Shown: in pieces, positions 9,952 to 23,288 of the stretch | Layout: each line of letters begins with the position of its first letter | Numbering within the stretch: the first letter of the stretch is position 1 | Assembly: GCA_018697035.1 (NCBI GenBank) | Contig: JABHSE010000004.1 | Span: 20,211 to 44,210 of the forward strand | Reading direction: 5' to 3' | Length of the DNA: 24,000 bases | DNA from: an archaeon | GTDB taxonomy: Archaea; Nanobdellota; Nanobdellia; Pacearchaeales; GW2011-AR1 | Position numbers and translations under genes: made by a program | Notes under the pieces: generated by a model | The model's database searches: none | The model's input: the letters and a program-made list of their open reading frames with translations, nothing else | What the model was told of the DNA's origin: nothing

Positions 9952-10275
9952 ATGGAAATCAACGTAACCGACATAAACTTCCAAAAAGAAGTAATAAAAA
10001 AATCAAGTGAAACCCCAGTCCTAGTAGACTTCTGGGCTTCATGGTGCGGACCCTGCATGATGCTAGGCCCAACGCTAGAAAAAATCGCAAAAGAATACGA
10101 TGGAAAACTGATAGTAGCAAAAGCAGCAACTGACGAGAACGCAGATGCAGCATCCAAATTCGGAGTAATGTCAATCCCAGCAGTAAAACTTTTCAAAGAC
10201 GGCAAAGTCATAGACGAATTCGTCGGAGCCCAACCCGAAGCCACAATCAAACAATGGCTAGATCAAAAATTATAA
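9952..10275 (+). CDS. trxA: Thioredoxin
   Basis: 107 aa with the WCGPC active site (FWASWCGPCMMLGP) and a thioredoxin-fold pattern (...MSIPAVKLFKDGK...). Confidence 0.95.
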   Translation: MEINVTDINFQKEVIKKSSETPVLVDFWASWCGPCMMLGPTLEKIAKEYDGKLIVAKAATDENADAASKFGVMSIPAVKLFKDGKVIDEFVGAQPEATIKQWLDQKL

Positions 10276-10314
10276 TTATAAAAAATCCGTGCAATCCGCG
10301 AAATCCGTGAGCAA

Positions 10315-11034
10315 TTATTCCCCTTCCCCAAAACAAACATCTCGCAAAACCTTCTTCCCAACAAACTCATCGTTTTCCTGAAACCGGTCCATCTCAATCC
10401 ACCGAAACCCATCCCCCTTCGCAATCTCATTAGGAGCTAAAGCACTCGGAAACGCCTTCAACCCGGCAACATCCTCCTCACTAATCCAATGATTCTCCCC
10501 CTCCCTAGTCTTCTCAATTAACTCCCCACGAGGATTCGTAGCCAAGATAACAAACATTTGATGATTATAACTAAGCTTCCCATTATTATAAGTCTTATAA
10601 GAACAAAGTCCCTTCAGCTCCAAATCACAAACCAACCCACTCTCCTCCATCAACTCCGCAGCCGCAGCCTCATAAATATACTGATCAAACTTCAACTTCC
10701 CAGCAATCGAACCCCAATAACTATAAAACGGCTCCTTCTTTCTCTCACACATCAAAAACTTTTTCTTCACATCATCATAAACGACAATAACAACACAAAC
10801 CAAAGGAGCCCTAGCTTTCTCCCCACTCTCACCCTCGAGATAGGCACAATACTTTTTCCCCTCACTACTTAAACAATATACTTCTTTTACTTTATCCACC
10901 AACCTATCCTCAACCAAAACCTTCAAATGATAAGCAAACAAATTACTCGCTCCAACATTACCCCACAACTCATTAAAACCCATCTCCCGCTTATGCATCA
11001 ACTTCCGCAAAATCTCCCGCCGTTCTTTCTTCAT
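10315..11034 (-). CDS. Winged-helix (ArsR-like) plus Nudix-domain fusion protein
   Basis: N-terminus RREILRKLMHKREMGFNELWGNVGASNLFAYHLKVLVEDRLV is wHTH-like. The Nudix box GKLKFDQYIYEAAAAELMEESGL compares with the consensus GX5EX7REUXEEXGU. The first E is Q and the R is A, while the EUXEEXGU part is intact. Confidence 0.75.
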   Translation of the reverse strand: MKKERREILRKLMHKREMGFNELWGNVGASNLFAYHLKVLVEDRLVDKVKEVYCLSSEGKKYCAYLEGESGEKARAPLVCVVIVVYDDVKKKFLMCERKKEPFYSYWGSIAGKLKFDQYIYEAAAAELMEESGLVCDLELKGLCSYKTYNNGKLSYNHQMFVILATNPRGELIEKTREGENHWISEEDVAGLKAFPSALAPNEIAKGDGFRWIEMDRFQENDEFVGKKVLRDVCFGEGE

Positions 11035-11107
11035 GTCAAAATAATAAAATCAAACTATATAAAATACTATCTCAAAAACATTTGAGCACTCCAATCTCTC
11101 AAGTAGA

Positions 11108-11179
11108 AAAGTCATAGACGAATTCGTCGGCGCACAACCAGAAGCCACAATCAAACAATGGCTAGATCAGAAGTTATAA
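11108..11179 (+). pseudogene. Detached second copy of the last 23 codons plus stop of thioredoxin
   Basis: 72 nt align with 10204-10275 without gaps. There are 5 differences (gga/ggc, gcc/gca, ccc/cca, caa/cag, aaa/aag), all at synonymous third positions. Both copies translate to KVIDEFVGAQPEATIKQWLDQKL*. Upstream of 11108 the homology decays, with an in-frame-breaking deletion and a tag. Confidence 0.9.
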
Positions 11180-11476
11180 AAAAATTCTATCAAGATAAAA
11201 GAGATAGTAGACGACTACAAATACTCCAATAAGTCCAATTGTAACAATTGCGATCCAATAGAGAGGAAAAATAAGTATCCTGAGAAAAAGGGGTACATTA
11301 AATTTTTTAAAAAAAGTCTCTATCTCAAGATGTCTCCTAATGTCAAAAACAACCAACCCATAAATTACTGAAATAAATAATGCACTAGTTAGTTCTCTAG
11401 AGAAAGTTAAAGCAAAGTATTCTTGTAATGTTTGTGTAGTTTGATTAACACAGTTGAGACAGATTGTGCCGTTCAT
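11174..11476 (-). CDS. Hypothetical membrane protein (100 aa, about 3 TM)
   Basis: ORF from the track with the ATG at 11476. It has hydrophobic segments. Its last two codons are read from the antisense of the trx fragment. Confidence 0.5.
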   Translation of the reverse strand: MNGTICLNCVNQTTQTLQEYFALTFSRELTSALFISVIYGLVVFDIRRHLEIETFFKKFNVPLFLRILIFPLYWIAIVTIGLIGVFVVVYYLFYLDRIFL

Positions 11477-11537
11477 AAAAAATCAAACAAATATTACTTT
11501 TTAAAAAAACACCATACTCCAAACTATATATTAGAAT

Positions 11538-12107
11538 CTAATTCCCTCTTCGCCTATTCGCCCTCAAACTAGGAAACGCCTTAGGAACACTCTCTCGCCT
11601 ATTCCTCTGCTGTCCCCGAGCCTTCTTCCCACTCGAAGTCAAACCACGCAAAGCCCTCTTCTTAGGAGCCTTAACAAACGGACCTAATTGCTTATCAACC
11701 AAAATACCAGCCTCACTTCTATCAACCAAAATAACCTCGTAAAAATAATTCATCCCATCCTTACCAATCCAATAACTCCCCAAGACTTCCATATTAACAT
11801 ACTTCTTCTGGACACGACCCTCCGCAATCTCCTTATAATTCATCCTCAAATTCTTCCTAATATGCAACCTCTTAGTCCTCCTCGCCTTATTCGGCCTACT
11901 CCTATGATGCCCACCACGCTTAATCTTAACACGAACAACAACAATCCCTTTCTTCGCCTTATACCCCAAACTACGAGCCCTGTCCAATCTCAAAGGCTTC
12001 TCAACCTTAGTAATAGCCCCATCCTTTCTCCAATCAATCATACGCGCACGCAAAGTCAAAACATCCGGCTTTCTCCACGCCTCACGCAAATACTTCATTA
12101 AACCCAT
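11538..12107 (-). CDS. rpl15e: Ribosomal protein eL15 (L15e)
   Basis: MGLMKYLREAWRKP...RLDRARSLGYKAKKGIVVVRVKIKRGG...: highly basic and typical of L15e. A TATA-like 'aaactttaaaaagg' box lies about 27 nt upstream. Confidence 0.9.
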   Translation of the reverse strand: MGLMKYLREAWRKPDVLTLRARMIDWRKDGAITKVEKPLRLDRARSLGYKAKKGIVVVRVKIKRGGHHRSRPNKARRTKRLHIRKNLRMNYKEIAEGRVQKKYVNMEVLGSYWIGKDGMNYFYEVILVDRSEAGILVDKQLGPFVKAPKKRALRGLTSSGKKARGQQRNRRESVPKAFPSLRANRRRGN

Positions 12108-12226
12108 AACAACTAATCAAAGATTTCCTTTTTAAAGTTTTAGTCTAGCAAAAATTCTAACTCCCAAACTTTAGCTCACAAGAGATACCTAAAGGGTTAT
12201 AAATAAAAAATCCTCTCCATTTCTAT

Positions 12227-12300
12227 GAGGCTGTGGCGCAGTCAGGTAGCGCACTGCTCTGATAAGGCAGGGGTCCGCGGTTCAAATCCGCGCAGCCTCA
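12227..12300 (+). tRNA. tRNA-Ile (anticodon GAT), 74 nt, no encoded CCA, no intron
   Basis: Hand-folded. Acceptor gaggctg/cagcctc, D arm gcgc-agtcaggta-gcgc, anticodon arm ctgct-CTGATAA-ggcag, variable gggtc, T arm cgcgg-ttcaaat-ccgcg, discriminator a. A TATA-like 'ttataaataaaaaa' box lies about 30 nt upstream. Confidence 0.9.
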
Positions 12301-12322
12301 TATGGATCTGAAACAAGGACGT

Positions 12323-12414
12323 GTCCGTGGCGAACAATTTGCTCGAATTTTTATTGCAAAGCAATTATAAAAATTTTAGAGTGAATTGTGAGTAAAATCC
12401 GCGCAGCCTCATAT
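12323..12414 (+). repeat. Partial second copy of the tRNA-Ile 3' third, interrupted by a 65-nt palindromic module
   Basis: gtccgtgg (12323-12330) matches the tRNA variable/T-stem gtccgcgg (12273-12280). The module occupies 12331-12395. aaatccgcgcagcctcatat (12395-12414) is an exact copy of 12284-12303. Confidence 0.85.
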
Positions 12415-12424
12415 TAATTAAGAA

Positions 12425-13048
12425 TTAAATCATATTCTTAGCATCTTCCCGAATCATCCCCACAATCTCCGGAAACTCCTCTACATCAAAATGCCCATTT
12501 TTATCATCATAAACAAAAATCTCAACCTCGCCCAACTTATCCCGATACTTCTCAGCGTGCGAAATAGGAACACAATCATCATCGGAAGAAAACATCAAAA
12601 CAACTCGCCCACAATTCTTCTCAATCAAACTCAAATCCTCCCCCAACTCAAATCCACCAACCAAATCTTCCCCGATTAAATCATTATCAAACGGAGGACA
12701 AACTAAATAAACAGAAATAATATTTTTATCGACAACATTCTCAGATAGGTATTTAGTCAAAAAAATTCCACCCAAAGAAGACCCAGCCAAAATAAAATTA
12801 TCATCCATCTCCTCAAGATATCTCTCAAACCAAATCTTCCAATCCTCATATTCAGCACAATCCTGCAAGGGCATTCTCGGCTTAACAATCTGAAAATCCT
12901 CTCCAAGACCATTCTTCAAATAATCCCCATGCCAACTATTTTTAAAATCAAGCTTAATACTCCGAGTCTTTAACCAATCTAGATAATCATCCCGACTCTT
13001 GAAAGTCATACCACCCCCAATACAAAGTACCTGAATTTTCTTCTTCAT
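12425..13048 (-). CDS. Alpha/beta-fold serine hydrolase (YdeN/RBBP9-like)
   Basis: 207 aa. Nucleophile elbow GSSLGG, later SSDDDCVP and a NGHF-type Asp/His. Size and order fit the small YdeN-type serine hydrolases. Confidence 0.65.
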   Translation of the reverse strand: MKKKIQVLCIGGGMTFKSRDDYLDWLKTRSIKLDFKNSWHGDYLKNGLGEDFQIVKPRMPLQDCAEYEDWKIWFERYLEEMDDNFILAGSSLGGIFLTKYLSENVVDKNIISVYLVCPPFDNDLIGEDLVGGFELGEDLSLIEKNCGRVVLMFSSDDDCVPISHAEKYRDKLGEVEIFVYDDKNGHFDVEEFPEIVGMIREDAKNMI

Positions 13049-13144
13049 GATAAAATTAACCTAAACCAATTTATATAATTTCCGGGCTCACCAGAGTCAT
13101 GCCATACGTGGCCAAAACAAAACTTAGCCAAGCCTCGCGCATGA

Positions 13145-13209
13145 GCGCTACCTCCATCATTCAAAGAACGATAACCACCATTTTTCAAAGAAAAATAACC
13201 ACCGTTTCG
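13145..13209. repeat. Three imperfect tandem units of period 24 nt in an intergenic spacer
   Basis: 'ataaccacc' occurs at 13171 and 13195, 'caaagaa' at 13162 and 13186, and a degenerate unit 'ctacctccatcat' sits at 13147. Confidence 0.7.
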
Positions 13210-13242
13210 CAAAGCGAAACAACCCCCAGTCGCTTCGCGACT
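13204..13242 (-). terminator. Two perfect hairpins just after the Hsp20-like gene; the second is followed by an oligo-T tract on the minus strand
   Basis: agtcgc-ttc-gcgact (13228-13242) overlaps the stop codon. gtttcgc-aaa-gcgaaac (13204-13220) is followed on the minus strand by ggtggttatttttctttg. Confidence 0.4.
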
Positions 13243-13876
13243 ATCCTCGCAACTCAACCGAAACCTTCTCCCTATCAATCCGCATCCCCAAAATCTCAAC
13301 CTTCATCGGAATCACCTTAACATAACACTTATCCTGAGCATACGCCCGAATCTCTATCCCAGTCTCAAGCTCAGTCAAAACAACATCCTCCTTGTTCACA
13401 ATCCCAGGCGCTTCAATCTCATAAACAATAACATCCCCAAGTCTCTTAACCCTAGATTTAGCATCAACCTTCTTAAGCTCAGCCCGTCTCTTCCCCTCTT
13501 CTTCCGAAACTACAACAACACTTCTTTTGACAGCCGGCTTTTTCTGAACAACCTGCGGACCACCCCGGCCCCTAGCAATCTGAATCTTCAAGCCCTTAGG
13601 CATCCCCGTCTTCTCATCAACCTCCATATTCCCAAGCTGCTTCTCTAACTGATTAATCAAACCCCCCATAAGCTTCTCAACACCGAATGGCAACTTCAAA
13701 TCAGGGTCACCAGAGCCATGCCTGTCTGAGGCGGACTGAATACGCCCTCCATCATTAGCACCAAGCATCCCAAGATCCTTACTATCTCCAACCTTAAGAG
13801 ACCCACCACACCAGGGACAATAATTAAATTTCCTATCAACTTTCTCCGCGCAGCCTCGACACTTCTTCTTAAACAT
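13241..13876 (-). CDS. Zinc-ribbon plus Hsp20/alpha-crystallin-like domain protein
   Basis: ATG at 13876 (MFKKKCRGCAEKVDRKFNYCPWCG gives a CxxC...CxxC ribbon). The C-terminus RLGDVIVYEIEAPGIVNKEDVVLTELETGIEIRA...YVKVIP is ACD-like. Confidence 0.7.
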   Translation of the reverse strand: MFKKKCRGCAEKVDRKFNYCPWCGGSLKVGDSKDLGMLGANDGGRIQSASDRHGSGDPDLKLPFGVEKLMGGLINQLEKQLGNMEVDEKTGMPKGLKIQIARGRGGPQVVQKKPAVKRSVVVVSEEEGKRRAELKKVDAKSRVKRLGDVIVYEIEAPGIVNKEDVVLTELETGIEIRAYAQDKCYVKVIPMKVEILGMRIDREKVSVELRG

Positions 13877-13951
13877 CAACTAGAAAAAAATATCAACTAC
13901 TTAAATCTTTGTAAACACACTTCACATTTAAACAACTCACTTCGACGAAAA

Positions 13952-15433
13952 CTACTCAGTCAGAACATCTTTCTTCTTTTCTTCTTCAAGTTCTTCCCTA
14001 TCCTCAGGAACCACATAATGCTCTACCTTCTCAACCAAATGTTCCAAGTTATGAACTTCTTTCAAGACACCCTGAGCCGGAGCAAACTCTCGAATCCAAA
14101 ACTGCGAAGAAAACTTCCTAACATTTCGAACCTCATGCAAAAGCCTCGATCCATAAATAGCAACCCCAATTCTACCAATACCTGAAACCGTAAAGATAAA
14201 CAACATAGAATTCATAAACGAAACATCCATCCAAGCGATTCCAGCTCCAACACAAGCACCAAGGAAACCACCAACACCAATCATAAGATTCATATAAGAC
14301 AAACCAAAACCTCGCTTCCGATTACTAACCGCATCATAAACATAATTATTCAAAGCCAAATTATAACCAGCCCAACCAAAACCACCAACAATCGACGGCA
14401 CAATCAATAAATAGATCTTCACCCACAAATCACTCCCAATCAAAACCGACGCAATCCAAAGAAAAGGAGTCATCCCCGCAAGCACCGAACAAGTTTGCAT
14501 CAACCTAACATTCCCAAACCTATCACTAAACTTACCAAGCAACGGCAAAAACACCAACTGAAAAACAACAGCCGAAACCGTAATAGCCATATACCAAATA
14601 TAAGACAAGCCCAAATCACGCAACATATAAACCGCCCAAAACGGAGTCGAAATTCCAACCACAAAAGTAAACGCCCCAGCAAACAAGCTAAACCGCCCAA
14701 ACGGAGTATCCCTACTAGTCCTCAAAAATTCAACAAAAGAAAAATGATCCTTCTTCCTAATTTTAATCTTCGGCTCATAAGTCTTACTAAGCAACCTCCA
14801 AGACCAAATCCTAAATACACCATTCAAAGCAAAAAGTAATCCAAAACCAAGCAATGTAAACCCGACGACATCACCATAAGAACCACCCAACTTCTTCAAG
14901 CCATCCAAGATCAGAGCACCTGCGATCATAGTCATAATACCAAAAAACCCAATAATACGATTCCGCTTAGAAAAATATCTTCCCCTCTCATTCTCTGGAA
15001 CTAATGACCCCATCCATGAAAACCAAGGAGGATGAGCAATGCCAAGAAAAACATAATGAAAACCAACAAGCACAATGAAGGCCCAAACCATATGAGCAAC
15101 ACCCATCCAATGCAAAAACCCAATCAATAAAAAAGGTAATACAACCAAAATCTTCCCCATCACTCCAGCCAAAACAATCCGCTTCCTCGAAAACCTCTCA
15201 ATCAAATCAGCCGCCTTCAATTGAACAAGACTCGGAAGCAAACTAATAATAGCATATAAAATTCCCATCTGAACAGCAGTCGCATTTAAAGCCAGAGCCG
15301 CAGGAGCAAAATACGACAAACTAAAATTAGAAGCAATAGAAGACACCGCACCCTCCCGAATACTAAGTTTCAAACTCCGCTTAATCTTCTTCTGCACAAT
15401 AGGATGATCGACCCTAACCTGTCCTCTTTTCAT
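13952..15433 (-). CDS. MFS-type transporter
   Basis: ORF trimmed to the ATG at 15433 (MKRGQVRV...). About 12 or more hydrophobic segments. LGKFSDRFGNVRL resembles the MFS G-x-x-x-D-R-x-G-R motif. Confidence 0.75.
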   Translation of the reverse strand: MKRGQVRVDHPIVQKKIKRSLKLSIREGAVSSIASNFSLSYFAPAALALNATAVQMGILYAIISLLPSLVQLKAADLIERFSRKRIVLAGVMGKILVVLPFLLIGFLHWMGVAHMVWAFIVLVGFHYVFLGIAHPPWFSWMGSLVPENERGRYFSKRNRIIGFFGIMTMIAGALILDGLKKLGGSYGDVVGFTLLGFGLLFALNGVFRIWSWRLLSKTYEPKIKIRKKDHFSFVEFLRTSRDTPFGRFSLFAGAFTFVVGISTPFWAVYMLRDLGLSYIWYMAITVSAVVFQLVFLPLLGKFSDRFGNVRLMQTCSVLAGMTPFLWIASVLIGSDLWVKIYLLIVPSIVGGFGWAGYNLALNNYVYDAVSNRKRGFGLSYMNLMIGVGGFLGACVGAGIAWMDVSFMNSMLFIFTVSGIGRIGVAIYGSRLLHEVRNVRKFSSQFWIREFAPAQGVLKEVHNLEHLVEKVEHYVVPEDREELEEEKKKDVLTE

Positions 15434-15469
15434 AATACATACTCGACAAAACAATATAAAAACTTAATC

Positions 15470-17850: not shown

Positions 17851-17978
17851 GCCCGAGACCTTCTAATTAATCCCTTTAAACCAAAACATTTCCCCAGACA
17901 ACACAATATACCAGATCATTTTCATAAGGCATATTGCATCCCAACAAACATTAAAAACAAAAGTCTCATAAAACATAC

Positions 17979-18224: not shown

Positions 18225-18236
18225 TTATTCAATATA

Positions 18237-18989
18237 TTACCGCCCAAAAATCCGACCCAAAAAACTTCTAACTTCCTCAACCTCATCCCCATTAACCTTC
18301 CTCGCAATCTCCAAATACTTCCTCGACACTCGGCTTCTAGGATGCGTATGAACAACAGCGTCCCTCATATTCAAAGCCTCCTTAACTGCCTTATCTTCAG
18401 GAATCACTCCAATAATCTGTGTCTCCAACATCGACCTAATCGAACTAAGCGGCATCTCATACTTAGCGTTCACATGCCGAGTCACAATAACACCATTAAC
18501 TTCCTTCCCCATCTCCCTAGCAACCTTAACAGCCTTCAAGGCATCAGTCACCGTCGGCATCTCAGGGTTAGTAACAATAACAACCTCATCAGCAACACCC
18601 AAAACGGCAATAACTTCCTCACCAAAACCAGCAGCAGAATCAATTATAACATAATCACAACTATCCCTCAGGCTCTCAATAATCTCCGGAATCTTCTTCG
18701 TATTAAACTTCGTCAACTCTTTAATCGACAGCGAGGACGGTATAATTTTAGTTCCAGAATGATGCTCATAAATAGCGTCCTCAATATCCGCCTTCCCTTT
18801 CAAAACATGATTCAGCGTCACCGGAACAATAGGAGCACCAAGTTGCAAACCAACATTCGGCGTATTCAAATTAGCATCAATAATAATAACTTCTTTCCCC
18901 AATCTATTTAGAGAAGTCCCTAAGTTAATCGCAGTAGTAGTCTTACCGACGCCACCTTTCCCCGAATTTATAACAATTACTCGTGCCAT
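18237..18989 (-). CDS. minD: MinD/ParA-family P-loop ATPase
   Basis: ORF trimmed to the ATG at 18989 (MARVIVINSGKGGVGKTTTAINL). Deviant Walker A KGGVGKTT and Walker B VIIDSAAG. Confidence 0.85.
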   Translation of the reverse strand: MARVIVINSGKGGVGKTTTAINLGTSLNRLGKEVIIIDANLNTPNVGLQLGAPIVPVTLNHVLKGKADIEDAIYEHHSGTKIIPSSLSIKELTKFNTKKIPEIIESLRDSCDYVIIDSAAGFGEEVIAVLGVADEVVIVTNPEMPTVTDALKAVKVAREMGKEVNGVIVTRHVNAKYEMPLSSIRSMLETQIIGVIPEDKAVKEALNMRDAVVHTHPRSRVSRKYLEIARKVNGDEVEEVRSFLGRIFGR

Positions 18990-19102
18990 TATTTTATTTC
19001 TATGTATCAAAGGTACTCTTCGAGCGCCATTTTGAACAAACGTATATCTATCAGAAAAAGTCACTTTATAAGTCTTATTCATAAACAAAAATACACACAA
19101 CC

Positions 19103-19546
19103 CTAAGCAATTATCTTCTTAACCTCGACACTAAATGCCTCAACAACATCATAATACTCACCCAATTTTTCCATATTAATATCAATAACCCTAGTAGGCG
19201 TCATCCTAACTTTCAAATTAACATTCTTTCTAAACTCCCCACTTCGAGTTTTCGATAAATCAGGAACACGCTTAAAGAAAATATACAACGGAATAACATC
19301 CTGGATAGCCTTATCCTTAGCAAAATATTTCTTCATAAATTCAATCCTTTGTATCGGCGTAGCGTGCATACACGGAATCTTCCCTTCCTCACATCGCTTC
19401 TCCAAAATCGCGTCAAAACTAATCTCAATTAAACTTTTCCAACGCGCCAACAGGTTCAAAATAACATCACATGTCTTCGTATATTTCAAACTAACATACA
19501 TAAGATGATCCGCGCTCGTCTTCTCCTTGATAATTTCTTCAATCAT
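19103..19546 (-). CDS. Hypothetical protein (147 aa), paralog-like to the upstream gene
   Basis: ORF trimmed to the ATG at 19546 (MIEEIIKEKTSADHLMYVSLKY...). Its layout is shared with the 19590-20003 product (N-terminal A-x-H/W-L helix, C-terminal EF-x-(R/K)N-x-x-L-x-V ... L-x-E). Confidence 0.55.
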   Translation of the reverse strand: MIEEIIKEKTSADHLMYVSLKYTKTCDVILNLLARWKSLIEISFDAILEKRCEEGKIPCMHATPIQRIEFMKKYFAKDKAIQDVIPLYIFFKRVPDLSKTRSGEFRKNVNLKVRMTPTRVIDINMEKLGEYYDVVEAFSVEVKKIIA

Positions 19547-19589
19547 TCTACTATCTCCCAATGCAAAAGAAACCACGATACTTATCCTT

Positions 19590-20003
19590 TTATACCTGTC
19601 GGAAATTCTCAACAACAGAACCAATATGACCAATAATCTCCCTCAATCTCGAAACTTCTAAGATTTTCCACTTTCCCCCAACCTCTAATAAAACCTTATC
19701 ATTCCTAACAAACTCAACCCTCGCCAGTTTTTGATCTCTTTCCAAATTCAAGATTCCAACAACCCCACAAATCTCTTCCTCACTCAAATATCTAGGCGCA
19801 ACATCAATCATAAAAGTCTGCAAGTTCCCCTTAGCCCCCTCTCGAATCAAAAACGCTCGAACCAGTTTCCCAGCCGATTTCGCCCCCTCTCGAATCACCC
19901 CAACCAAAACCCGCTTCTCCGCATACTCATCATAAACCCCAAGCATCCTCTTCGCAACATCCAAATGCCACCGCGCAGAATAAAACTCCTCTCTATAATC
20001 CAT
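19590..20003 (-). CDS. Hypothetical protein (137 aa) containing an in-frame 48-nt internal duplication
   Basis: The track start at 20018 is TTG. I prefer the ATG at 20003, with a TATA-like 'attaatataaag' box centred about 26 nt upstream. The 16-nt exact repeat gccccctctcgaatca at 19834 and 19882 encodes IREGAK twice. Confidence 0.55.
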   Translation of the reverse strand: MDYREEFYSARWHLDVAKRMLGVYDEYAEKRVLVGVIREGAKSAGKLVRAFLIREGAKGNLQTFMIDVAPRYLSEEEICGVVGILNLERDQKLARVEFVRNDKVLLEVGGKWKILEVSRLREIIGHIGSVVENFRQV

Positions 20004-20051
20004 CAAACGAAAACCCAAAATCTCTTTATATTAATTATGACACTCGACAAC

Positions 20052-20309
20052 CTATCGCTTTTTCTTCTTCTTCTCGACCTTCTCCATATCCACTATCAAT
20101 TTTTCATGCAACATTTCATTATTCTCATTTTCTAGAATACTCTTATCAACGGCAGAAGCAACCAGGACCGATAATGTAATTATTATAGCCCAAAGAAAAC
20201 TACCATCTAAAAATATAATCAATATCTTATAACCAACAACACCAAAAATAGCACCCCAAAAAATAGAAACTATTTTTCTAATCCAGTTTTTCATAGTAAA
20301 GTTCATCAT
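20052..20309 (-). CDS. Hypothetical membrane protein (85 aa, 2 TM, Lys-rich tail)
   Basis: ORF from the track with the ATG at 20309 and a TATA-like box about 27 nt upstream. Confidence 0.5.
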   Translation of the reverse strand: MMNFTMKNWIRKIVSIFWGAIFGVVGYKILIIFLDGSFLWAIIITLSVLVASAVDKSILENENNEMLHEKLIVDMEKVEKKKKKR

Positions 20310-20343
20310 TTTAATATATTCTTAATGAGATAATTATATTTAA

Positions 20344-20685
20344 CTAGTTTTTGTTTAAGGCATTCAATGAAACAATCGCCTCAGCAATATCTCCATCACT
20401 ATCCTCTAACGCAGCCCGAACTTCCGCCTCACTTTTCCCACTCTGCGAGGCAACCATCTCAACGTCATCATCACTAAAAACTTCAACCGATTCCTCAACA
20501 ATATCCCCAGTCACCTGAAAACTCTCCTGTCCCTGCATCTTAATCTGCATAACATTAGGATTCTCAACAACCAGATTACCATCCTCCATCTCAAAAACAA
20601 CCCTCTTCACCGGCAACTCAACCTGACTAATTCCCATCTTCTTCATCATCCCCTTCATTTGCGACGGATTAACACCACCAAACAT
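20344..20685 (-). CDS. nac: Nascent polypeptide-associated complex protein (archaeal NAC, alpha type)
   Basis: MFGGVNPSQMKGMMKKMGI...NPNVMQIKMQGQESFQVTG forms the NAC domain. The C-terminus SEAEVRAALEDSDGDIAEAIVSL is UBA-like. Confidence 0.9.
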   Translation of the reverse strand: MFGGVNPSQMKGMMKKMGISQVELPVKRVVFEMEDGNLVVENPNVMQIKMQGQESFQVTGDIVEESVEVFSDDDVEMVASQSGKSEAEVRAALEDSDGDIAEAIVSLNALNKN

Positions 20686-20849
20686 TATTCACGCACCTCA
20701 TATTTTCCTGTTTGTATATAAGCAATAATGTCTTTAAGTCCTTCCTTAAAAGGTCTTAGCTCATCATTAGCTTTTTTCAAATCAGAAATATCAGCAGATT
20801 CATCATGATACTGCCCCGGATATCTACTACCTTCATCCATCAAACTCAT
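20685..20849 (-). CDS. Small hypothetical ORF (54 aa) between the Sec61-beta and NAC genes
   Basis: Not in the ORF track. ATG at 20849, one nt after the Sec61-beta stop. Its TAA overlaps the NAC ATG (TAATG). Translation is MSLMDEGSRYPGQYHDESADISDLKKANDELRPFKEGLKDIIAYIQTGKYEVRE*. Confidence 0.35.
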   Translation of the reverse strand: MSLMDEGSRYPGQYHDESADISDLKKANDELRPFKEGLKDIIAYIQTGKYEVRE

Positions 20850-20850
20850 C

Positions 20851-21006
20851 TTAACCGTAAAACATTCTCAGACCCACAACCAAAACAATCGTAACAATAA
20901 TCATTCCAACAACAACCCCAGGTCCAAACTTTAATTTAGAATTATACTCCTCGTTATACCGCATTAACCCACCAAATCCACTCGGCATAGTCGCATTATC
21001 AGCCAT
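20851..21006 (-). CDS. secG: Preprotein translocase subunit Sec61-beta (archaeal SecG)
   Basis: Not in the ORF track (51 aa). Translation is MADNATMPSGFGGLMRYNEEYNSKLKFGPGVVVGMIIVTIVLVVGLRMFYG*. The G-L-M-R-Y motif followed by a C-terminal TM anchor is the Sec61-beta signature. Confidence 0.8.
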   Translation of the reverse strand: MADNATMPSGFGGLMRYNEEYNSKLKFGPGVVVGMIIVTIVLVVGLRMFYG

Positions 21007-21044
21007 AACAAATCAAGCAACAATCAATTTATAAAAGTTCCTAC

Positions 21045-22319
21045 CTACTTCTTCTCAATCCTCTTCATCCCACCCATATAAGGAATCAAAATCTCAGGAA
21101 TACTAATACTCCCATCCTCATTCTGAAAATTCTCTAAGAAACAACACATAGTCCTCTGCAAAGTTATCGCCGTCCCATTCAAAGTATAAACAAGCGCTCG
21201 TCCAGTTCCAGTATGATACTTAGTATCCATCTTCCGAGCCTGATAATCACTAGCATTACTCGTACTCCCAAGTTCTCTATACTTACCCTGCGCAGGAAAC
21301 CATCCCTCTAAATCATGCGTCTTCTTCATCGAACCACTAAACTCCCCCGCGCATAAAGCCACAACCCGATACGGAATCCCAAGCAACTTAAAAATCTCCT
21401 CCTGATTAGCAATAATCTCATCAAAAACCGCATCCGCATCTTTCGGCTCACAATAAACAAATTGCTCAATCTTCTCAAAACGATGCACCCGAAAAATCCC
21501 CTTCGTATCCTTCCCATGACTACCAGCCTCCTTCCTAAAACAACTACTCAACCCAGCATACCTAATAGGTTCCTTAACATTAATTACCTCGTCCTTATGA
21601 AGCGCCGCAAGCGCATGCTCACTCGTCCCAATCAAATACAAATCCTCTCCATCAATCTTATAAATACTCTCCTCAAAATCCTCCAAACTAACAGCCCCAC
21701 CAACAGCAGCCCGATTCAACATATAAGGAGTCTGAACAGGTAAAAATCCTTTCTTAATTAAAACATCCATAGCAAACCTCTGCAAAGCCTGATTCAACAA
21801 AACCAGATCACCCTTCAAATAATAAAACCTCGAACCAGCAACTTTAGCTCCACGCACACTATCAACCAAATCCAAATCCTCGACGATATCCTCATGTCCC
21901 TTCGGCTTAAAGCCAAAATCCCTAATCTCTCCCCACTTCCTCAATTCAAGATTATCCTTCTCATCTTTCCCATCTGGAACAGAGGCATCCATAATATTCG
22001 GCAAGCTCAATAAAATATCCTTTATTTCATCATATAATTTCTTGGCTTTTTCCTCAATCTTATCAATCTTCCCAGGAATCTCCTTAGCCTCTTTCAACTT
22101 CTTAACAACGTCCTTGCCAGCCTTCTTCAACTCACTAATTGCCTCACTAACTTCATTTCTTTCATGCTTCAAATCATCAACACTCTTCTTCTCTTTCCTC
22201 CATTCAACATCCAACTCCAAAACCCGATCAACAAGCGCCAACTTTCCCTCCTGAAACTTCTTCTTAATATTAGCCTTCACTAACTCAGGATCCTCTCGAA
22301 CCAATTTAATATCTATCAT
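21045..22319 (-). CDS. serS: Seryl-tRNA synthetase
   Basis: ORF trimmed to the ATG at 22319 (MIDIKLVREDPELVKANIKKK...). N-terminal coiled-coil arm and a class II core: GTSEHALAALH, SSCFRKEAGSHGKDTKGIFRVHRFEKIEQF, YTLNGTAITLQR. Confidence 0.95.
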   Translation of the reverse strand: MIDIKLVREDPELVKANIKKKFQEGKLALVDRVLELDVEWRKEKKSVDDLKHERNEVSEAISELKKAGKDVVKKLKEAKEIPGKIDKIEEKAKKLYDEIKDILLSLPNIMDASVPDGKDEKDNLELRKWGEIRDFGFKPKGHEDIVEDLDLVDSVRGAKVAGSRFYYLKGDLVLLNQALQRFAMDVLIKKGFLPVQTPYMLNRAAVGGAVSLEDFEESIYKIDGEDLYLIGTSEHALAALHKDEVINVKEPIRYAGLSSCFRKEAGSHGKDTKGIFRVHRFEKIEQFVYCEPKDADAVFDEIIANQEEIFKLLGIPYRVVALCAGEFSGSMKKTHDLEGWFPAQGKYRELGSTSNASDYQARKMDTKYHTGTGRALVYTLNGTAITLQRTMCCFLENFQNEDGSISIPEILIPYMGGMKRIEKK

Positions 22320-22462
22320 AAAAGAGAAAGCCCCAATCAATTATTTAAACTTTTCCGTAACCACTACCAAATGCCCTGTCACTAAAGCCGAATTCTGTAT
22401 CTACTCCCCATAGACGAAAATCCACAGCAAAACTTATAAGCAAAAAAACTCTAATATATACA

Positions 22463-22481
22463 TTGGAACATATAGTTCCAA
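22463..22481. promoter_or_regulatory. 7-bp inverted repeat TTGGAAC-atata-GTTCCAA between the TATA-like box and the ATG of the wHTH gene
   Basis: Read directly from the sequence. It lies 10 nt upstream of the ATG at 22491 and just downstream of 'ctaatatatac'. This is the position expected for an autorepressor operator. Confidence 0.5.
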
Positions 22482-22490
22482 ACAAATACA

Positions 22491-22757
22491 ATGGCAGAAA
22501 ATTTTGACCTATTCTTCAGAAGAAAACCAGCGATGATGTTAATCGCTCTAGGCAAAGTTTCCCGTGCCAAATACGGCTCACAACTAGCAAAAGAAGTCGA
22601 TTGCACATACTCTCACGCCGTTAAGATATTACAAACTCTAGAAGAATACGGGCTAGTAAGTTTCGAGAAAAAGGGCAGAATAAAAATAATCAAACTAACA
22701 AAAAAGGGAAAGGAAGTCTCAGAACATATAGCAGCAATTCGAAAAATAGTTTCTTAA
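22491..22757 (+). CDS. Small winged-helix transcriptional regulator
   Basis: 88 aa. SQLAKEVDCTYSHAVKILQTLEEYGLVSFEKKGRIKIIKLTKKG gives an HTH plus a beta-hairpin wing. Confidence 0.7.
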   Translation: MAENFDLFFRRKPAMMLIALGKVSRAKYGSQLAKEVDCTYSHAVKILQTLEEYGLVSFEKKGRIKIIKLTKKGKEVSEHIAAIRKIVS

Positions 22758-22758
22758 G

Positions 22759-23025
22759 ATGACAGAATACAAAAGGTCATATATTATAAAAAAAGTAAAA
22801 GAGTCTATCGTTTCTCAATTAAAGAAGAGTACCTTTTACGATAATATCTCACCAGACAAAATAAATATGGAGATAGGGTTGGCAGAATTAGGATTAGATT
22901 CCTTTTCTTTAGTTGATTTAGTCGTAGGTTTGGGAAAAAGATTTCAAAGAGATGATATCTACAATAAGATGCTTGACAAAAATTATTTTAATGGAAATGG
23001 ATTAGTAGAAGTAATTTCTTCATAA
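22759..23025 (+). CDS. Acyl/peptidyl carrier protein-like (PP-binding-like) small protein
   Basis: 88 aa. IIKKVKESIVSQL...GLAELGLDSFSLVDLVVGLGKRF parallels the ACP pattern (...DLGxDSLxxVELVMxLEEEF) with a Ser in the DS position. It starts 1 nt after the wHTH stop codon. Confidence 0.55.
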   Translation: MTEYKRSYIIKKVKESIVSQLKKSTFYDNISPDKINMEIGLAELGLDSFSLVDLVVGLGKRFQRDDIYNKMLDKNYFNGNGLVEVISS

Positions 23026-23064
23026 CAATACTTTTTTAAATCAAAAATTCTCTAATCAACCATT

Positions 23065-23139
23065 GGCTTCGTAGCTCAGCCTGGTTAGAGCACTAGACTC
23101 TTAATCTAGGTGTCGGGGGTTCAAATCCCCTCGAGGCCA
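23065..23139 (+). tRNA. tRNA-Lys (anticodon CTT), 75 nt, no encoded CCA, no intron
   Basis: Hand-folded. Acceptor ggcttcg/cgaggcc (one G-T pair), D arm gctc-agcctggtta-gagc, anticodon arm ctaga-CTCTTAA-tctag, variable gtgtc, T arm ggggg-ttcaaat-cccct, discriminator a. Confidence 0.9.
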
Positions 23140-23144
23140 TATAA

Positions 23145-23164
23145 ATGCCATCGCAAGATGGCAT
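23145..23164 (+). other. 8-bp perfect hairpin with a GCAA (GNRA) tetraloop in the tRNA-Lys trailer
   Basis: atgccatc-gcaa-gatggcat, read directly from the sequence. Confidence 0.6.
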
Positions 23165-23197
23165 ATTCTACTCTCTGTGTATTTCAAGTCACGGCAA

Positions 23198-23288
23198 TGT
23201 CGGGGCGAACGATTTGCTCGAATTTTTATTGCGAAGCGATTAGAAATTTTTAGAGTGAATCGTGAGTAATTCAAATCCCCTCGAGACA
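23198..23288 (+). repeat. Partial second copy of the tRNA-Lys 3' third, interrupted by the same palindromic module (64 nt)
   Basis: tgtcgggg (23198-23205) matches the tRNA tgtcggggg (23111-23119). The module occupies 23206-23269. ttcaaatcccctcgag (23270-23285) is an exact copy of 23120-23135. The acceptor strand then degenerates (gaca versus ggcca). Confidence 0.85.

What the first reader, a model, noticed from the sequence alone, without database searches (positions are those of the whole stretch)
10204..23288. A recurrent 'intact gene plus downstream copy of its own 3' end' architecture occurs at three loci with no recombinase in sight
The trx locus (inter-copy gap 832 bp), tRNA-Ile (91 nt between the exact 20-nt copies) and tRNA-Lys (134 nt between the exact 16-nt copies) all show a functional gene whose 3' end is repeated a short distance downstream. 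This is the footprint left by elements that integrate into gene 3' ends while supplying a replacement end, such as tyrosine-recombinase integrative elements, or by long target duplications such as those of Cas1-type integrases. However, the inserts are tiny and the window encodes no integrase, casposase or transposase. Three cases in 24 kb, two of them within 2 kb, suggest an active or recently active process in this lineage whose enzyme is encoded elsewhere. Alternatively there may be a non-canonical mechanism.
Basis: inference. Interest (0 to 1): 0.65.

Follow-up and report, generated by a model that had tools for sequence, protein, structure and literature searches.

The report
Hairpin mini-inserts that duplicate tRNA ends
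Both tRNA genes in this archaeal window are followed by the same tiny insert, built around a conserved hairpin and ending in a spare copy of the tRNA's own 3' end. The insert belongs to a large, apparently undescribed family sitting beside at least 18 kinds of tRNA gene in related DPANN archaea, whereas the thioredoxin duplication is a separate recombination scar.

Summary
All three repeats are real, at the stated coordinates and gaps, and far beyond chance.

The tRNA-Ile and tRNA-Lys inserts share a ~64-nt hairpin, HP1 (12331-12394 and 23206-23268).

- **Spread:** a metagenome scan found 85 HP1 copies. Essentially all lie beside tRNA-derived sequence, and 18 isoacceptors were called.
- **Unit layout:** intact tRNA, then inverted and direct copies of its T-arm, then the hairpin, then a copy of the tRNA 3' end.
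- **Structure:** the stem is kept by compensatory changes and folds better on one strand in 58 of 58 copies.
- **Mobility:** hairpin subtypes do not follow tRNA identity, units form arrays that differ between strains, and related genomes have empty sites.

The window encodes no recombinase. Relatives carry a very abundant tyrosine integrase family next to tRNA genes, including an 85-nt enzyme-less derivative. That family has different ends and has not been linked to HP1.

The trx repeat contains no HP1. Its five differences are all synonymous, so it joins two diverged trx alleles. A second, independent trx 3' duplication exists in a relative.

Best reading: small non-autonomous mobile inserts served in trans. 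The mechanism is unresolved.

The parts
9952..10275 (+). Intact thioredoxin gene (107 aa).
   Evidence: Pfam Thioredoxin, E = 6e-30.
10204..10275 (+). trx 3' end, copy X, which is part of the working gene.
   Evidence: the repeat finder family D4. Its last codons and downstream flank resemble the trx of relative L060.
10276..10314 (.). 39-nt spacer between the trx and NUDIX stop codons, absent in relative L093. It holds the 9-mers AAATCCGTG / CAATCCGCG / AAATCCGTG, which resemble the tRNA-Ile T-loop and T-stem, followed by GTGAGCAATT, which resembles an HP1 start.
   Evidence: Read by eye; it could be chance.
10315..11034 (-). wHTH (DUF7347) plus NUDIX hydrolase gene lying between the two trx copies.
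   Evidence: Pfam. In relatives L092/L093 the same gene sits next to trx with no duplication.
11108..11179 (+). trx 3' end, copy Y, a displaced non-functional fragment.
   Evidence: 93% identical to X. All 5 differences are synonymous third-codon positions.
12226..12301 (+). Intact tRNA-Ile(GAT).
   Evidence: ARAGORN; Rfam tRNA 68.5 bits.
12304..12322 (+). Filler: a degenerate inverted copy of tRNA positions about 46-62 (variable loop, 5' strand of the T-stem, T-loop).
   Evidence: Local alignment of the spacer to the tRNA in both orientations.
12323..12330 (+). Direct 8-nt copy (GTCCGTGG) of tRNA positions 46-53, with one mismatch.
12331..12394 (+). HP1 hairpin, CGAAC...GTGAGTA.
   Evidence: Covariance model R1, 80.8 bits. 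Fold. Covariation and strand asymmetry.
12395..12414 (+). Displaced copy of the tRNA-Ile 3' end, from T-loop position 57 to 3 nt past the discriminator base.
   Evidence: Exact 20-mer.
23064..23140 (+). Intact tRNA-Lys(CTT).
   Evidence: ARAGORN; Rfam 69 bits.
23145..23164 (+). Small hairpin ATGCCATC-GCAA-GATGGCAT directly after the tRNA. Its structure, but not its sequence, is kept in the orthologous units of L013, L034, L058 and L077.
   Evidence: by comparing sequences.
23198..23205 (+). Direct copy (TGTCGGGG) of the 5' strand of the tRNA-Lys T-stem and the bases just before it.
23206..23268 (+). HP1 hairpin, CGAACG...GTGAGTA.
   Evidence: Covariance model R1, 63.6 bits. 89% identical to the tRNA-Ile copy.
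23270..23285 (+). Displaced copy of the tRNA-Lys 3' end, running from the start of the T-loop into the 3' strand of the acceptor stem. It has decayed after GAG (ACAT in place of GCCAT).
   Evidence: Exact 16-mer.

Best explanation
**What is shown**

- The tRNA-Ile and tRNA-Lys loci each carry one copy of a small insertion unit, about 110 bp at tRNA-Ile and about 150 bp at tRNA-Lys when the downstream tRNA-end copy is counted.
- The unit belongs to a family specific to tRNA genes of Woesearchaeota/Pacearchaeota-type DPANN archaea.
- Its layout is: intact tRNA, 1-5 nt, an inverted copy of the tRNA's own T-arm 5' half, a direct 8-nt copy of the same region, a roughly 64-nt hairpin (HP1), and then the tRNA's 3' end again.
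- The hairpin ends are YGAR...YGAR, which form a C-G (or U-A) pair followed by tandem G.A pairs.
- The hairpin is the part that moves. The same subtype sits at different tRNAs, and orthologous tRNAs carry different subtypes. It occurs in either orientation, stacks with other hairpin families in one slot, forms arrays that vary between strains, and is absent from some related genomes.

**What is inferred**

- These are non-autonomous mobile inserts that enter the T-loop to 3'-end segment while an intact tRNA copy is kept or rebuilt. The displaced end is left downstream.
- They act through a single-stranded hairpin form, DNA or RNA.
- They depend on an enzyme encoded elsewhere, most plausibly a tRNA-targeting recombinase. 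The lineage has an extremely abundant tyrosine integrase family beside tRNA genes, and that family also leaves tiny derivatives without an enzyme.

**The trx repeat** follows the same logic, with a replacement 3' end arriving alongside foreign DNA. It is a separate event: a junction between two diverged trx haplotypes, with no HP1.
For: **Homology of the two inserts.**

**Family size and tRNA association.**
- 78 metagenome loci and one Woesearchaeota MAG carry the hairpin.
- That gives 85 copies, of which 53 have a same-strand tRNA upstream. 18 isoacceptors were called.
- 43 of 50 testable copies have an exact copy of at least 12 nt of that tRNA's 3' end within 45 nt after the hairpin. The median copy length is 18 nt.
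- Where ARAGORN called no tRNA, the copy lies at a contig end or next to an intron-containing tRNA or a tRNA fragment.

**Regular unit anatomy.** Seen at about 25 different tRNA loci.

**Hairpin structure.**
- Compensatory pairs: columns 9-70 are CG 25 / AU 23 / UA 1 with none broken. Columns 24-53 are UA 24 / CG 13 / GC 6 / AU 3.
- The base of the stem covaries through many variants.
- The sense strand folds better in 58 of 58 copies with RNA parameters and 52 of 58 with DNA parameters.

**Mobility.**
- In its variable parts, the window's tRNA-Ile hairpin is 93% identical to tRNA-Lys hairpins in L013/L039 and 91% to a tRNA-His hairpin in L021. It is only 55-67% identical to tRNA-Ile hairpins in other genomes.
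- L069 has one unit and L085 has two identical units at the same tRNA-Ser locus. The tRNA-Asn arrays in L014, L016 and L088 all differ.
- L066 is a chimera: the filler matches tRNA-Leu but the end copy after the hairpin is tRNA-Thr-like.
- Empty sites exist. L094/L095 have a tRNA-Ile identical to the window's with no unit. L096 has a tRNA-His without a unit, while L021's has one.

**Enzyme supplied in trans is plausible.**
- 2175 relatives of a roughly 390-aa integrase were found, many with a PF00589 hit and named integrase by their sources. One lies on a contig of about 0.5 Mb (P0110; 502,180 nt listed, a 480,040-nt contig read). A 502,180-nt contig also holds the related tRNA-Lys unit L058.
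- These integrases sit right after tRNA-Glu or tRNA-Asp genes. L098 shows an 85-nt mini-derivative, and L099 is a 10.6-kb island bounded by a 13-nt repeat.

**trx.**
- The five differences are all synonymous.
- L060 has trx next to the L15e gene with 20 nt between them. L093 has trx and NUDIX adjacent with no repeat. L095 has an independent 105-nt trx 3' duplication around a 230-nt non-coding insert.
Against: - No enzyme has been linked to HP1. The known integrase islands have different ends and a different crossover point, and none carries HP1 at its own boundary.
- No autonomous element with HP1 ends was found.
- HP1 is absent from IMG/VR viral contigs.
- The length of the duplicated tRNA end and the exact insertion point vary: positions 53/54, 56/57 and 60-64, and anticodon or D loops of pseudo-copies. 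This is unlike a clean site-specific or fixed-stagger mechanism.
- The inverted-plus-direct filler derived from the tRNA is not explained by any standard pathway.
- The tRNA-Lys unit, apart from its hairpin, is conserved over relatives with about 74-81% TFS protein identity. Whole units can therefore be old, and a host function is not excluded.
- The loci were collected by searching for the hairpin, so frequencies per genome are unknown.
- Covariation between the two arms could partly reflect co-evolving terminal repeats bound by a protein rather than a folded strand.
Confidence: 0.55

Rival explanations
1. **Inert scars.** Each unit is what remains of a larger tRNA-integrated element after its interior was deleted, leaving attL and attR. 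On this view HP1 is a conserved arm or terminal sequence of one family of integrative elements, and nothing moves today.
For: - Integrase islands at tRNA genes are common in relatives.
- L098 shows exactly such an 85-nt leftover of the integrase-type element next to a full island.
- Islands sit between hairpin units in L033, L068 and L084.
- The tRNA-Lys unit is shared by several relatives.
Against: - No full-length element with the filler at one end and HP1 at the other was seen in about 100 loci.
- The integrase islands found have unrelated ends.
- One hairpin family occurs at 18 or more tRNA types, whereas integrases are normally site-specific.
- Hairpin subtypes are swapped while the surrounding filler stays identical, as in the window against L058 at tRNA-Lys.
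- The hairpin occurs in both orientations.
- Identical tandem units occur (L085).
Confidence: 0.18
2. **Host-selected module.** The hairpin and the spare 3' end serve the cell. Possible roles are a terminator or processing element between convergent genes, a structured small RNA, or a decoy landing pad that lets integrases insert without touching the working tRNA.
For: - The strand-specific structure is kept by compensatory change.
- The direct 8-nt copy and the 3'-end copy match the local tRNA even where T-stems differ between lineages: CGCGG, CCAGG and CTGGG in tRNA-Ile.
- T-runs lie inside the hairpin, and both window copies lie between convergent genes.
- Islands in L068 and L084 are integrated at the spare copies rather than in the tRNA itself.
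Against: - Identical tRNA-Ile genes work without the unit in L094/L095.
- The hairpin occurs in either orientation relative to the tRNA, which would destroy its G-U pairs in a co-transcript.
- No Rfam family matches.
- The inverted filler decays, for example AAGGAC where the exact inverted copy would read CGCGGAC.
- Arrays and nested insertions look selfish rather than designed.
Confidence: 0.12
3. **No dedicated enzyme.** Replication template switching at the palindromic T-arm creates the forward-reverse-forward duplications. Gene conversion between T-arm-like flanks then spreads the hairpin.
For: - The forward / inverted / forward order of the tRNA-derived segments is the classic signature of template switching.
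- Breakpoints vary and a few nucleotides are lost at the hairpin site.
- T-loop flanks are similar in all tRNAs, which offers microhomology.
- The L066 chimera shows recombination within the hairpin.
Against: - The same regular layout, with an 8-nt direct copy and a 14-16-nt inverted copy, recurs at about 25 different tRNAs.
- Several unrelated hairpin families also occupy this slot. That regularity is unlikely for random repair events.
- The hairpin has conserved YGAR ends.
Confidence: 0.1
4. **Cas1 or casposase-type integration.** A fixed staggered cut gives a long target-site duplication.
For: - Casposons are known to target tRNA 3' ends and to form tandem arrays.
- The arrays of tRNA end, insert, tRNA end look like repeat-spacer arrays.
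Against: - The repeat length is not fixed. It runs from 10 to about 50 nt with a median of 18.
- There are no casposon-like terminal repeats.
- No Cas1 was found in the window or in any island examined.
Confidence: 0.02

Closest known systems
Tyrosine-recombinase integrative elements at tRNA genes (attL/attR with the tRNA 3' end duplicated), and their enzyme-less derivatives such as CIMEs (cis-mobilizable elements)
   Same: - The gene stays intact and a displaced copy of its 3' end lies downstream.
- Tandem arrays form at one tRNA.
- The enzyme may act in trans.
- The lineage has abundant integrases of this kind, plus an 85-nt derivative in L098.
   Different: - The units are only about 110-150 bp.
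- One hairpin family serves 18 or more tRNA types.
- The hairpin sits inside the T-loop of the spare copy, in either orientation.
- The filler is made of inverted and direct copies of the target.
- The ends are unrelated to the integrase islands found here.
MITEs and palindromic repeat elements (REP/REPIN, Rickettsia palindromic elements, IS200/IS605-derived PATEs)
   Same: - Short, non-coding and hairpin-forming.
- Many copies per lineage, grouped into subfamilies.
- Nested and tandem insertions.
- The enzyme is supplied in trans.
   Different: - Strictly associated with tRNA-derived sequence: essentially all 85 copies.
- No fixed target-site duplication.
- No autonomous partner was found.
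- The arms pair only when G-T or G-U pairs are allowed, so they are poor terminal inverted repeats as duplex DNA.
Folded single-strand recombination sites: integron attC, and CTX-phi attP used by XerCD
   Same: - Structure rather than sequence is conserved.
- Strand-specific, with bulges and a variable apical loop.
- In the model sketched in the report, a single-stranded unit could fold into a duplex mimic of the tRNA T-arm.
- Such systems regenerate a site and build arrays.
   Different: - No attC R''/R' consensus (RYYYAAC / GTTRRRY).
- No adjacent integron integrase.
- The hairpin occurs in both orientations, which a fixed folded att site would not predict.
- This comparison is purely an analogy.
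Archaeal bulge-helix-bulge (BHB) tRNA introns, split tRNA genes and permuted tRNA genes
   Same: - Extra structured sequence at tRNA loops, namely the T-loop, the anticodon loop and the D-loop.
- Related inserts occur at different tRNAs, as in the intron transposition reported for Thermoproteales. That report is recalled from my own knowledge of Fujishima and colleagues' work.
   Different: - The working tRNA upstream is complete, so no splicing is needed.
- The spare copy often lacks the TTC of the T-loop.
- The base of the hairpin is a symmetric loop of tandem G.A pairs, not two bulges at opposite ends of a 4-bp helix.
Homology-facilitated illegitimate recombination between diverged genomes (applies to the trx locus)
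   Same: One end of the event lies in homologous sequence and the other is illegitimate. This leaves a partial gene duplication whose two copies differ like orthologues, here by synonymous changes only.
   Different: A second, independent trx 3' duplication in L095 around a small non-coding insert hints that the trx 3' end is a preferred site, which a random scar would not predict.

Membership tests
Tyrosine-recombinase integrative element | An integrase gene lies inside the element or next to its att site. | tested here: not met
   The three inserts hold no such ORF. No Pfam recombinase domain was found in the window, and tblastn with the lineage's integrase found nothing.
Tyrosine-recombinase integrative element | Direct repeats of the target gene's 3' end flank the insert, and the gene stays intact. 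| tested here: met
Tyrosine-recombinase integrative element | A cognate integrase is present in the lineage and uses the same att core and arms. | tested here: inconclusive
   The integrase family is abundant and lies beside tRNA genes. Its elements end in ACCYWTCTTGGCA and duplicate only the last 11-13 nt of the tRNA. That motif is absent from the window.
Casposon / Cas1-type integration | A Cas1 integrase, terminal inverted repeats, and a target duplication of fixed length (about 14-15 bp). | tested here: not met
   The repeat length varies from 10 to about 50 nt. No Cas1 was found in the window or in the islands examined.
MITE | Terminal inverted repeats, many dispersed copies, and a fixed short target-site duplication. 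| tested here: inconclusive
   Hairpin arms and many copies are present. There is no fixed duplication flanking the hairpin; a few target bases are lost instead. No autonomous relative was found.
IS200/IS605-derived element (PATE) | Insertion 3' of one specific tetra- or pentanucleotide without duplication, similar subterminal hairpins at both ends, and TnpA or TnpB nearby or in the genome. | tested here: not met
   The bases 5' of the duplicated segment differ between loci (TTC, CAC, CTA, GGC and others). There is one large hairpin, not two alike. No TnpA or TnpB was seen in the window.
Integron attC site | R''/R' core sites (RYYYAAC ... GTTRRRY), and an array next to an integron integrase and attI. 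| tested here: not met
   The hairpin ends are YGAR...YGAR, and the AAC/GTT bases are not conserved. There is no adjacent integrase. Tested by reading the alignment, not with an attC model.
Archaeal BHB intron | Two 3-nt bulges on opposite strands separated by a 4-bp helix at the exon-intron junctions, with the intron interrupting the only functional gene copy. | tested here: not met
   By inspection, the base of the hairpin is a symmetric C-G / G.A / A.G motif. The upstream tRNA is complete, scoring 68-69 bits. No dedicated BHB search program was run.
Diversity-generating retroelement (VR/TR pair), considered for trx | The differences between the two repeats fall at adenines of the template repeat, and a reverse transcriptase lies nearby. 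| tested here: not met
   The five differences go in mixed directions (A>C, C>A, C>A, A>G, A>G) and all are synonymous. There is no reverse transcriptase in the window. A genuine DGR was seen only in the unrelated locus L068.
Any curated RNA family (Rfam 15) | A covariance-model match at E <= 1 in the window, or at E <= 0.1 in the related loci. | tested here: not met
   Only tRNAs matched at the relevant positions in the window. Seven related loci with arrays gave tRNAs only.

The most novel reading that the evidence does not exclude
HP1 and its sister hairpins would be a new class of mobile element specialised on tRNA genes. On this reading a hairpin of about 64 nt inserts into tRNA loops through a single-stranded, folded intermediate. 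It borrows a host or island recombinase, in the way CTX-phi uses XerCD or integron cassettes use attC sites. The process itself would build the inverted and direct copies of the target and the spare 3' end, so that an essential tRNA survives each hit. As a by-product the spare ends multiply the landing sites for integrase islands, which makes tRNA genes of these reduced genomes into growing, array-like insertion platforms.
Probability: 0.25. Interest if true: 0.85.

Novelty: new variant of a known kind. Interest (0 to 1): 0.7.

Why it matters
**tRNA genes as insertion sites.** tRNA genes are the classic docking sites for mobile DNA. How very small archaeal genomes tolerate and channel that traffic is poorly known.

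**What this family would add if confirmed:**
- It is a compact element of about 64 nt that lives only at tRNA genes of many specificities.
- It keeps the tRNA intact.
- It builds arrays of spare tRNA ends, at which larger islands are then found. These include conjugative-type islands and one carrying a diversity-generating retroelement.

**What it would open up:**
- A tractable model for recombination at folded single strands in archaea.
- A marker for strain-level variation in DPANN metagenomes.

**Practical warning for annotation.** tRNA 3' fragments and hairpins downstream of tRNA genes in these lineages are neither noise nor split tRNA genes.

**The trx result.** It shows that protein-gene 3' ends are also reused as junctions between diverged relatives.

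Tried and rejected
**Searches that found nothing**
- Rfam gave nothing but tRNAs.
- The hairpin is absent from IMG/VR viral contigs under two patterns.
- An exact 19-mer scan of GTDB species genomes gave one true hit, L013, and three chance hits. The source species is therefore apparently not among those representatives, or carries other subtypes.
- The hairpin model found no copy in the trx insert or anywhere else in the window. It also found none in L092-L096.
- Four full-text literature searches and one preprint on complete Nanobdellota genomes gave no description of such units.

**Identities considered for the hairpin and rejected**
- C/D box or H/ACA guide RNA, k-turn, or hammerhead-like core: by inspection the boxes, the 3-nt bulge and the core motifs are missing.
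- BHB intron: rejected as set out in the membership table.
- RNA-guided nuclease guide (TnpB-like, scaffold plus flanking guide): attractive because the spare end follows the hairpin. However, no common adjacent motif precedes the matching sequence in the tRNA, the hairpin occurs in both orientations relative to the spare end (L078, L044), and no such nuclease was seen.

**trx and other repeats**
- DGR reading of the trx repeat: rejected as set out in the membership table.
- A third tRNA-Ile end copy at 13846-13858 is a 13-of-14 match inside an ORF. I treat it as chance, with about 0.008 such matches expected.

**Integrase**
- Pfam and PDB sequence searches with the L070 integrase alone failed. 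Its identity rests on weak NCBIfam XerA hits, and on PF00589 hits and source names among its 2175 relatives.

Full report
**The organism and the window**

The window is from an archaeon. It encodes ribosomal protein L15e, TBP, an ATP-dependent DNA ligase, a TFS-like protein, SerRS and MetRS. It has about 40% G+C and a very strong strand asymmetry, with GC skew near -0.5.

The same sequence occurs on contigs of up to 546 kb in several metagenomes. The closest named relatives of its proteins and of the hairpin-bearing loci are Woesearchaeota, Pacearchaeota and Nanoarchaeota MAGs, that is, DPANN archaea.

**Checking the observation**

The window holds 11 exact direct repeats of at least 14 nt within 2 kb, against 0.8 expected. 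The other eight lie inside genes as domain repeats, so the three repeats at gene 3' ends stand out.

No recombinase domain was found in any ORF. The integrase family of this lineage has no match in the window.

The two tRNA inserts are homologous. Both contain a 64-66-nt imperfect hairpin, which I call HP1. Its sequence is GGCGAAC(A/G)ATTTGCTCGAATTTTT...TTTTAGAGTGAAT(T/C)GTGAGTA, and it ends one to a few bases before the spare tRNA end.

A 38-nt degenerate pattern hits only these two places, where none is expected. The hairpin folds on the tRNA-sense strand with several G-U pairs, and folds less well on the other strand.

**How widespread the hairpin is**

- An exact 19-mer scan of one genome per GTDB species found one true relative. 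It is a Woesearchaeota MAG whose tRNA-Lys has the same insert and its own spare 3' end.
- A gapped pattern that leaves the stem base and the apical loop free found 78 metagenome loci.
- After two false hits were removed, there are 85 hairpin copies. Of these, 53 have a tRNA gene upstream on the same strand, 12 have a tRNA only in another arrangement, and 20 have none called.
- Those 20 lie at contig ends or next to intron-containing tRNAs or tRNA fragments.
- Eighteen isoacceptors were called: Arg (two), Asn, Gln, Glu, His, Ile, Leu (two), Lys (two), Met, Phe, Ser (three), Thr and Val. Intron-containing tRNA-Glu(CTC) and tRNA-Ile(TAT) add to that list.
- In 43 of 50 testable cases, an exact copy of at least 12 nt of that tRNA's own 3' end follows the hairpin within 45 nt. 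The median copy length is 18 nt.
- A covariance model built from 49 distinct copies finds only the two known copies in the window, and about 75 in 60 loci.

**Anatomy of a unit**

Aligning each spacer to its tRNA in both orientations shows a regular plan at about 25 different loci:

1. The intact tRNA.
2. One to five bases, often T-rich.
3. An inverted copy of tRNA positions about 46-62, covering the end of the variable loop, the 5' strand of the T-stem and the T-loop.
4. A direct copy, usually exactly 8 nt, of positions 46-53.
5. The hairpin.
6. The tRNA sequence from about position 57 to a few bases past its 3' end.

In effect the spare copy is a T-arm plus the 3' strand of the acceptor stem, in which the hairpin replaces two to six bases of the T-loop.

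Variants exist:
- In the tRNA-Lys units the whole T-loop is kept.
- In tRNA-Gln, tRNA-Glu and some tRNA-Ser units the spare end starts inside the T-stem.
- In L055 the spare copy is a nearly full-length pseudo-tRNA with the hairpin at the anticodon loop.
- In L020, L022, L051 and L075 a pseudo-copy lies upstream of the tRNA and carries the hairpin, antisense, at its anticodon arm. L022 has a second insert at the D-loop.
- In L078 and L044 the hairpin is inverted inside an otherwise normal 3' unit.

Other, unrelated hairpin families fill the same slot. They stack in tandem or nest, as in L016, L018, L086 and L088.

**Evidence that the hairpin is a real structure**

- Outside the bases fixed by my search pattern, the paired columns covary. 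Columns 9-70 are CG 25 / AU 23 / UA 1 with none broken. Columns 24-53 are UA 24 / CG 13 / GC 6 / AU 3.
- The base of the stem runs through many compensated variants, including CGAAAATC/GTTTGAG, CGAACAA/TTGTGAG, TGAGCAA/TTGCGAA and CGAGAAGC/GTTCGAG.
- Through all of these it keeps a C-G or U-A pair followed by tandem G.A/A.G.
- The sense strand is more stable in 58 of 58 distinct copies with RNA parameters, at -16.5 against -10.1 kcal/mol. With DNA parameters it is more stable in 52 of 58.
- No Rfam family matches.
- One caveat applies. Arms that co-evolve to fit one protein could mimic part of this signal, although the diversity of the stem bases argues for structure rather than sequence recognition.

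**Evidence for movement**

- *Subtypes ignore tRNA identity.* In its variable parts, the window's tRNA-Ile hairpin is 93% identical to tRNA-Lys hairpins in L013/L039. It is 91% identical to a tRNA-His hairpin in L021 and 84% to the window's own tRNA-Lys hairpin. It is only 55-67% identical to tRNA-Ile hairpins in six other genomes. One apical sequence occurs at tRNA-Ile, tRNA-Leu and tRNA-Ser.
- *Hairpin swapped, filler unchanged.* At tRNA-Lys, the window and L058 share 45 identical filler bases but carry hairpins only 53% identical in their variable parts.
- *Strain differences.* L069 has one unit and L085 has two identical units at the same tRNA-Ser locus. The tRNA-Asn arrays of L014, L016 and L088 all differ.
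- *A chimera.* In L066 the filler matches tRNA-Leu but the spare end after the hairpin is tRNA-Thr-like, so recombination has taken place inside the hairpin.
- *Empty sites.* L094/L095 carry a tRNA-Ile identical base for base to the window's, followed directly by ATTTTTTATAAAG, with no hairpin model hit. The tRNA-His of L096 has no unit, while that of L021 has one. The tRNA-Lys of L022, L037 and L087 lacks the 3' unit and has a 5' one instead.
- *Against pure recency.* The tRNA-Lys unit occurs in L013, L034, L039, L058 and L077. These include relatives whose TFS protein is only 74-81% identical to the window's. In the window its spare end has begun to decay.

**Searching for an enzyme**

L068 is a 4,995-nt contig whose two ends are the same 100 nt. 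Those ends consist of hairpin plus spare tRNA-Glu end. The contig carries:
- a diversity-generating retroelement, with a reverse transcriptase and an 80-nt repeat pair;
- a split gene weakly similar to XerA-type recombinases.

An intact homologue of 400 aa lies right after tRNA-Glu in L070. It has 2175 relatives at E <= 1e-5. Most are 380-400 aa, many have precomputed PF00589 hits, and several are named integrase by their sources, in Pacearchaeota, Nanoarchaeota and similar lineages.

Their contexts are classic:
- tRNA-Glu followed by an integrase on a 480-kb contig of a relative (L096). The same protein is listed on a 502,180-nt contig, the length of the contig that holds the related tRNA-Lys unit L058.
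- tRNA-Asp followed by an integrase and an island with a TrbC pilin, a VirB4/TraC ATPase and a methyltransferase (L098).
- A 10.6-kb island bounded by CCGGTGGGAGCGT repeats (L099).

All of these elements begin two to four bases after the tRNA with ACCYWTCTTGGCA, and they duplicate only the last 11-13 nt of the tRNA.

L098 also holds an 85-nt miniature of such an element, made of its two ends and nothing else, in tandem with the full island. Tiny enzyme-less derivatives of integrase elements therefore do arise in this lineage.

Their ends, however, are unrelated to HP1, and their end motif is absent from the window. Islands in L033, L068, L084 and L062 sit between or behind hairpin units, which shows that the spare ends serve as extra landing sites.

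**The trx locus**

The two 72-nt copies differ at five positions, all synonymous third-codon positions. Both copies therefore evolved as part of working trx genes before being joined.

Relatives show the alternative arrangements:
- L060 has the L15e gene, trx and ligase, with 20 nt between the trx and L15e stop codons.
- L041 has a small PspC-like ORF there.
- L092/L093 have PspC, NUDIX, trx and ligase, with trx and NUDIX back to back and no repeat.

Copy X and its flank resemble L060 and L093. Copy Y has the codon choices of L041. Homology with L093 upstream of NUDIX stops just after a small hairpin ending in TTTGAGCA, 19 nt before Y.

The simplest reading is one recombination between two diverged haplotypes, homologous on one side and illegitimate on the other. 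Which side is foreign cannot be told from these data. The hairpin model finds nothing in this locus.

Two details keep the case open:
- L095 has an independent trx 3' duplication of about 105 nt, with non-synonymous differences too. It surrounds a 230-nt non-coding insert containing hairpins, and there the displaced copy keeps the native position next to NUDIX.
- The window has 39 extra bases between the trx and NUDIX stop codons that look like tRNA-Ile T-arm fragments followed by an HP1 start. This may be chance.

**Mechanism**

What is shown is the anatomy, the conserved structure, the restriction to tRNA, the signs of movement, and the presence of tRNA-targeting integrases and their miniatures in the lineage. 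How the hairpin units form is inferred.

A single conservative exchange could in principle give the observed order. It would join the tRNA at the 5' edge of the duplicated segment to a small element of the form: spare end, inverted T-arm, 8-nt copy, hairpin. As a single strand, that element would fold into a duplex mimic of the T-arm site with the hairpin bulging out, in the way CTX-phi attP mimics a dif site. I did not test this model, and three observations do not fit it cleanly:
- the hairpin occurs in both orientations;
- the insertion point varies;
- a few target bases are lost at the insertion site.

A two-step history, with a tRNA-end duplication first and the hairpin landing in the harmless copy later, explains those points. 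However, no hairpin-free intermediate was seen among about 90 tRNAs examined.

Template switching explains the forward-inverted-forward order but not its regularity. I therefore commit only to [quoted passage not shown], at about 0.55.

**Verdict**

The interesting object is not the three repeats as such. It is a tRNA-specific hairpin element family that I could not find described in the searchable literature.

Noticed in passing
window 13846-13858: CCGCGCAGCCTCG matches 13 of 14 bases of the tRNA-Ile 3' end. It lies 1.5 kb downstream of the tRNA, inside the N-terminal zinc-ribbon codons of ORF 13241-13879. About 0.008 such matches are expected by chance, so it is probably coincidence. If it were real, a serine-hydrolase gene and two small ORFs would lie between tRNA-end copies.
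   Followed up: partly
window 10276-10314: 39 bases between the trx and NUDIX stop codons are absent in relative L093. They are flanked by AATTAT and made of three 9-mers resembling the tRNA-Ile T-loop and T-stem, followed by GTGAGCAATT, which looks like the start of a TGAG-type HP1 hairpin. This could be the footprint of a lost unit.
   Followed up: partly
window 1-24000; L001-L007 gene calls: GC skew is extreme, about -0.5 over most of the window, because coding strands are purine-rich. In several ENA assemblies the gene caller places a 100-aa ORF on the wrong strand in place of thioredoxin.
   Followed up: no
window 5681-5954: Two 144-nt tandem repeats (71-79% identity) lie inside the 486-aa S-layer-like protein gene (5012-6472).
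   Followed up: no
L068 1-4995: This contig has identical 100-nt ends, so it is either circular or bounded by repeats. It carries a diversity-generating retroelement (reverse transcriptase at 216-1256, repeat pair at 1287-1366 and 1670-1749 at the end of a 263-aa target gene). It also carries a split tyrosine-integrase gene, and is bounded by hairpin plus tRNA-Glu end modules.
   Followed up: partly
L097 11186-16995; L098 11203-19293: The integrase-bearing islands next to tRNA genes in these DPANN archaea encode a TrbC-type pilin, a VirB4/TraC-like ATPase, a TraG-like P-loop domain and N6/N4 methyltransferases. They therefore look like integrative conjugative elements.
   Followed up: no
L098 9822-9935: An 85-nt miniature of the integrase-type element (ACCTTTCTGGCAC...GTGCCAAGATGGT) sits between tRNA-Asp and a degenerate 11-nt copy of its 3' end, in tandem with the full island.
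   Followed up: partly
L095 4690-5130 (minus strand): An independent duplication of the trx 3' end, about 105 nt, surrounds a 230-nt non-coding insert. The insert contains a long G-T-containing hairpin (ATTTCAAATTGCATTTT...AAAATGTAATTTGAAAG).
   Followed up: partly
L066 597-700: A chimeric unit: the filler matches the upstream tRNA-Leu(TAG), but the spare end after the hairpin is tRNA-Thr-like. This suggests that hairpins act as dispersed repeats mediating genome rearrangement.
   Followed up: no
window 23145-23164; L013, L034, L058, L077, L086: A short hairpin directly after tRNA-Lys keeps its structure while its sequence changes (ATGCCATC-GCAA-GATGGCAT, GGGAATT-ATA-AATTCCC, GAGGGATT-GCA-AATCCCTC). 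A near-identical GGGATTGCAAATCCC also occurs in a tRNA-Val array in L086.
   Followed up: no
L094/L095 1482-1557: A tRNA-Ile identical to the window's lies on the same strand as the L15e gene, whereas the two are divergent in the window. A local inversion therefore accompanies the empty site.
   Followed up: no
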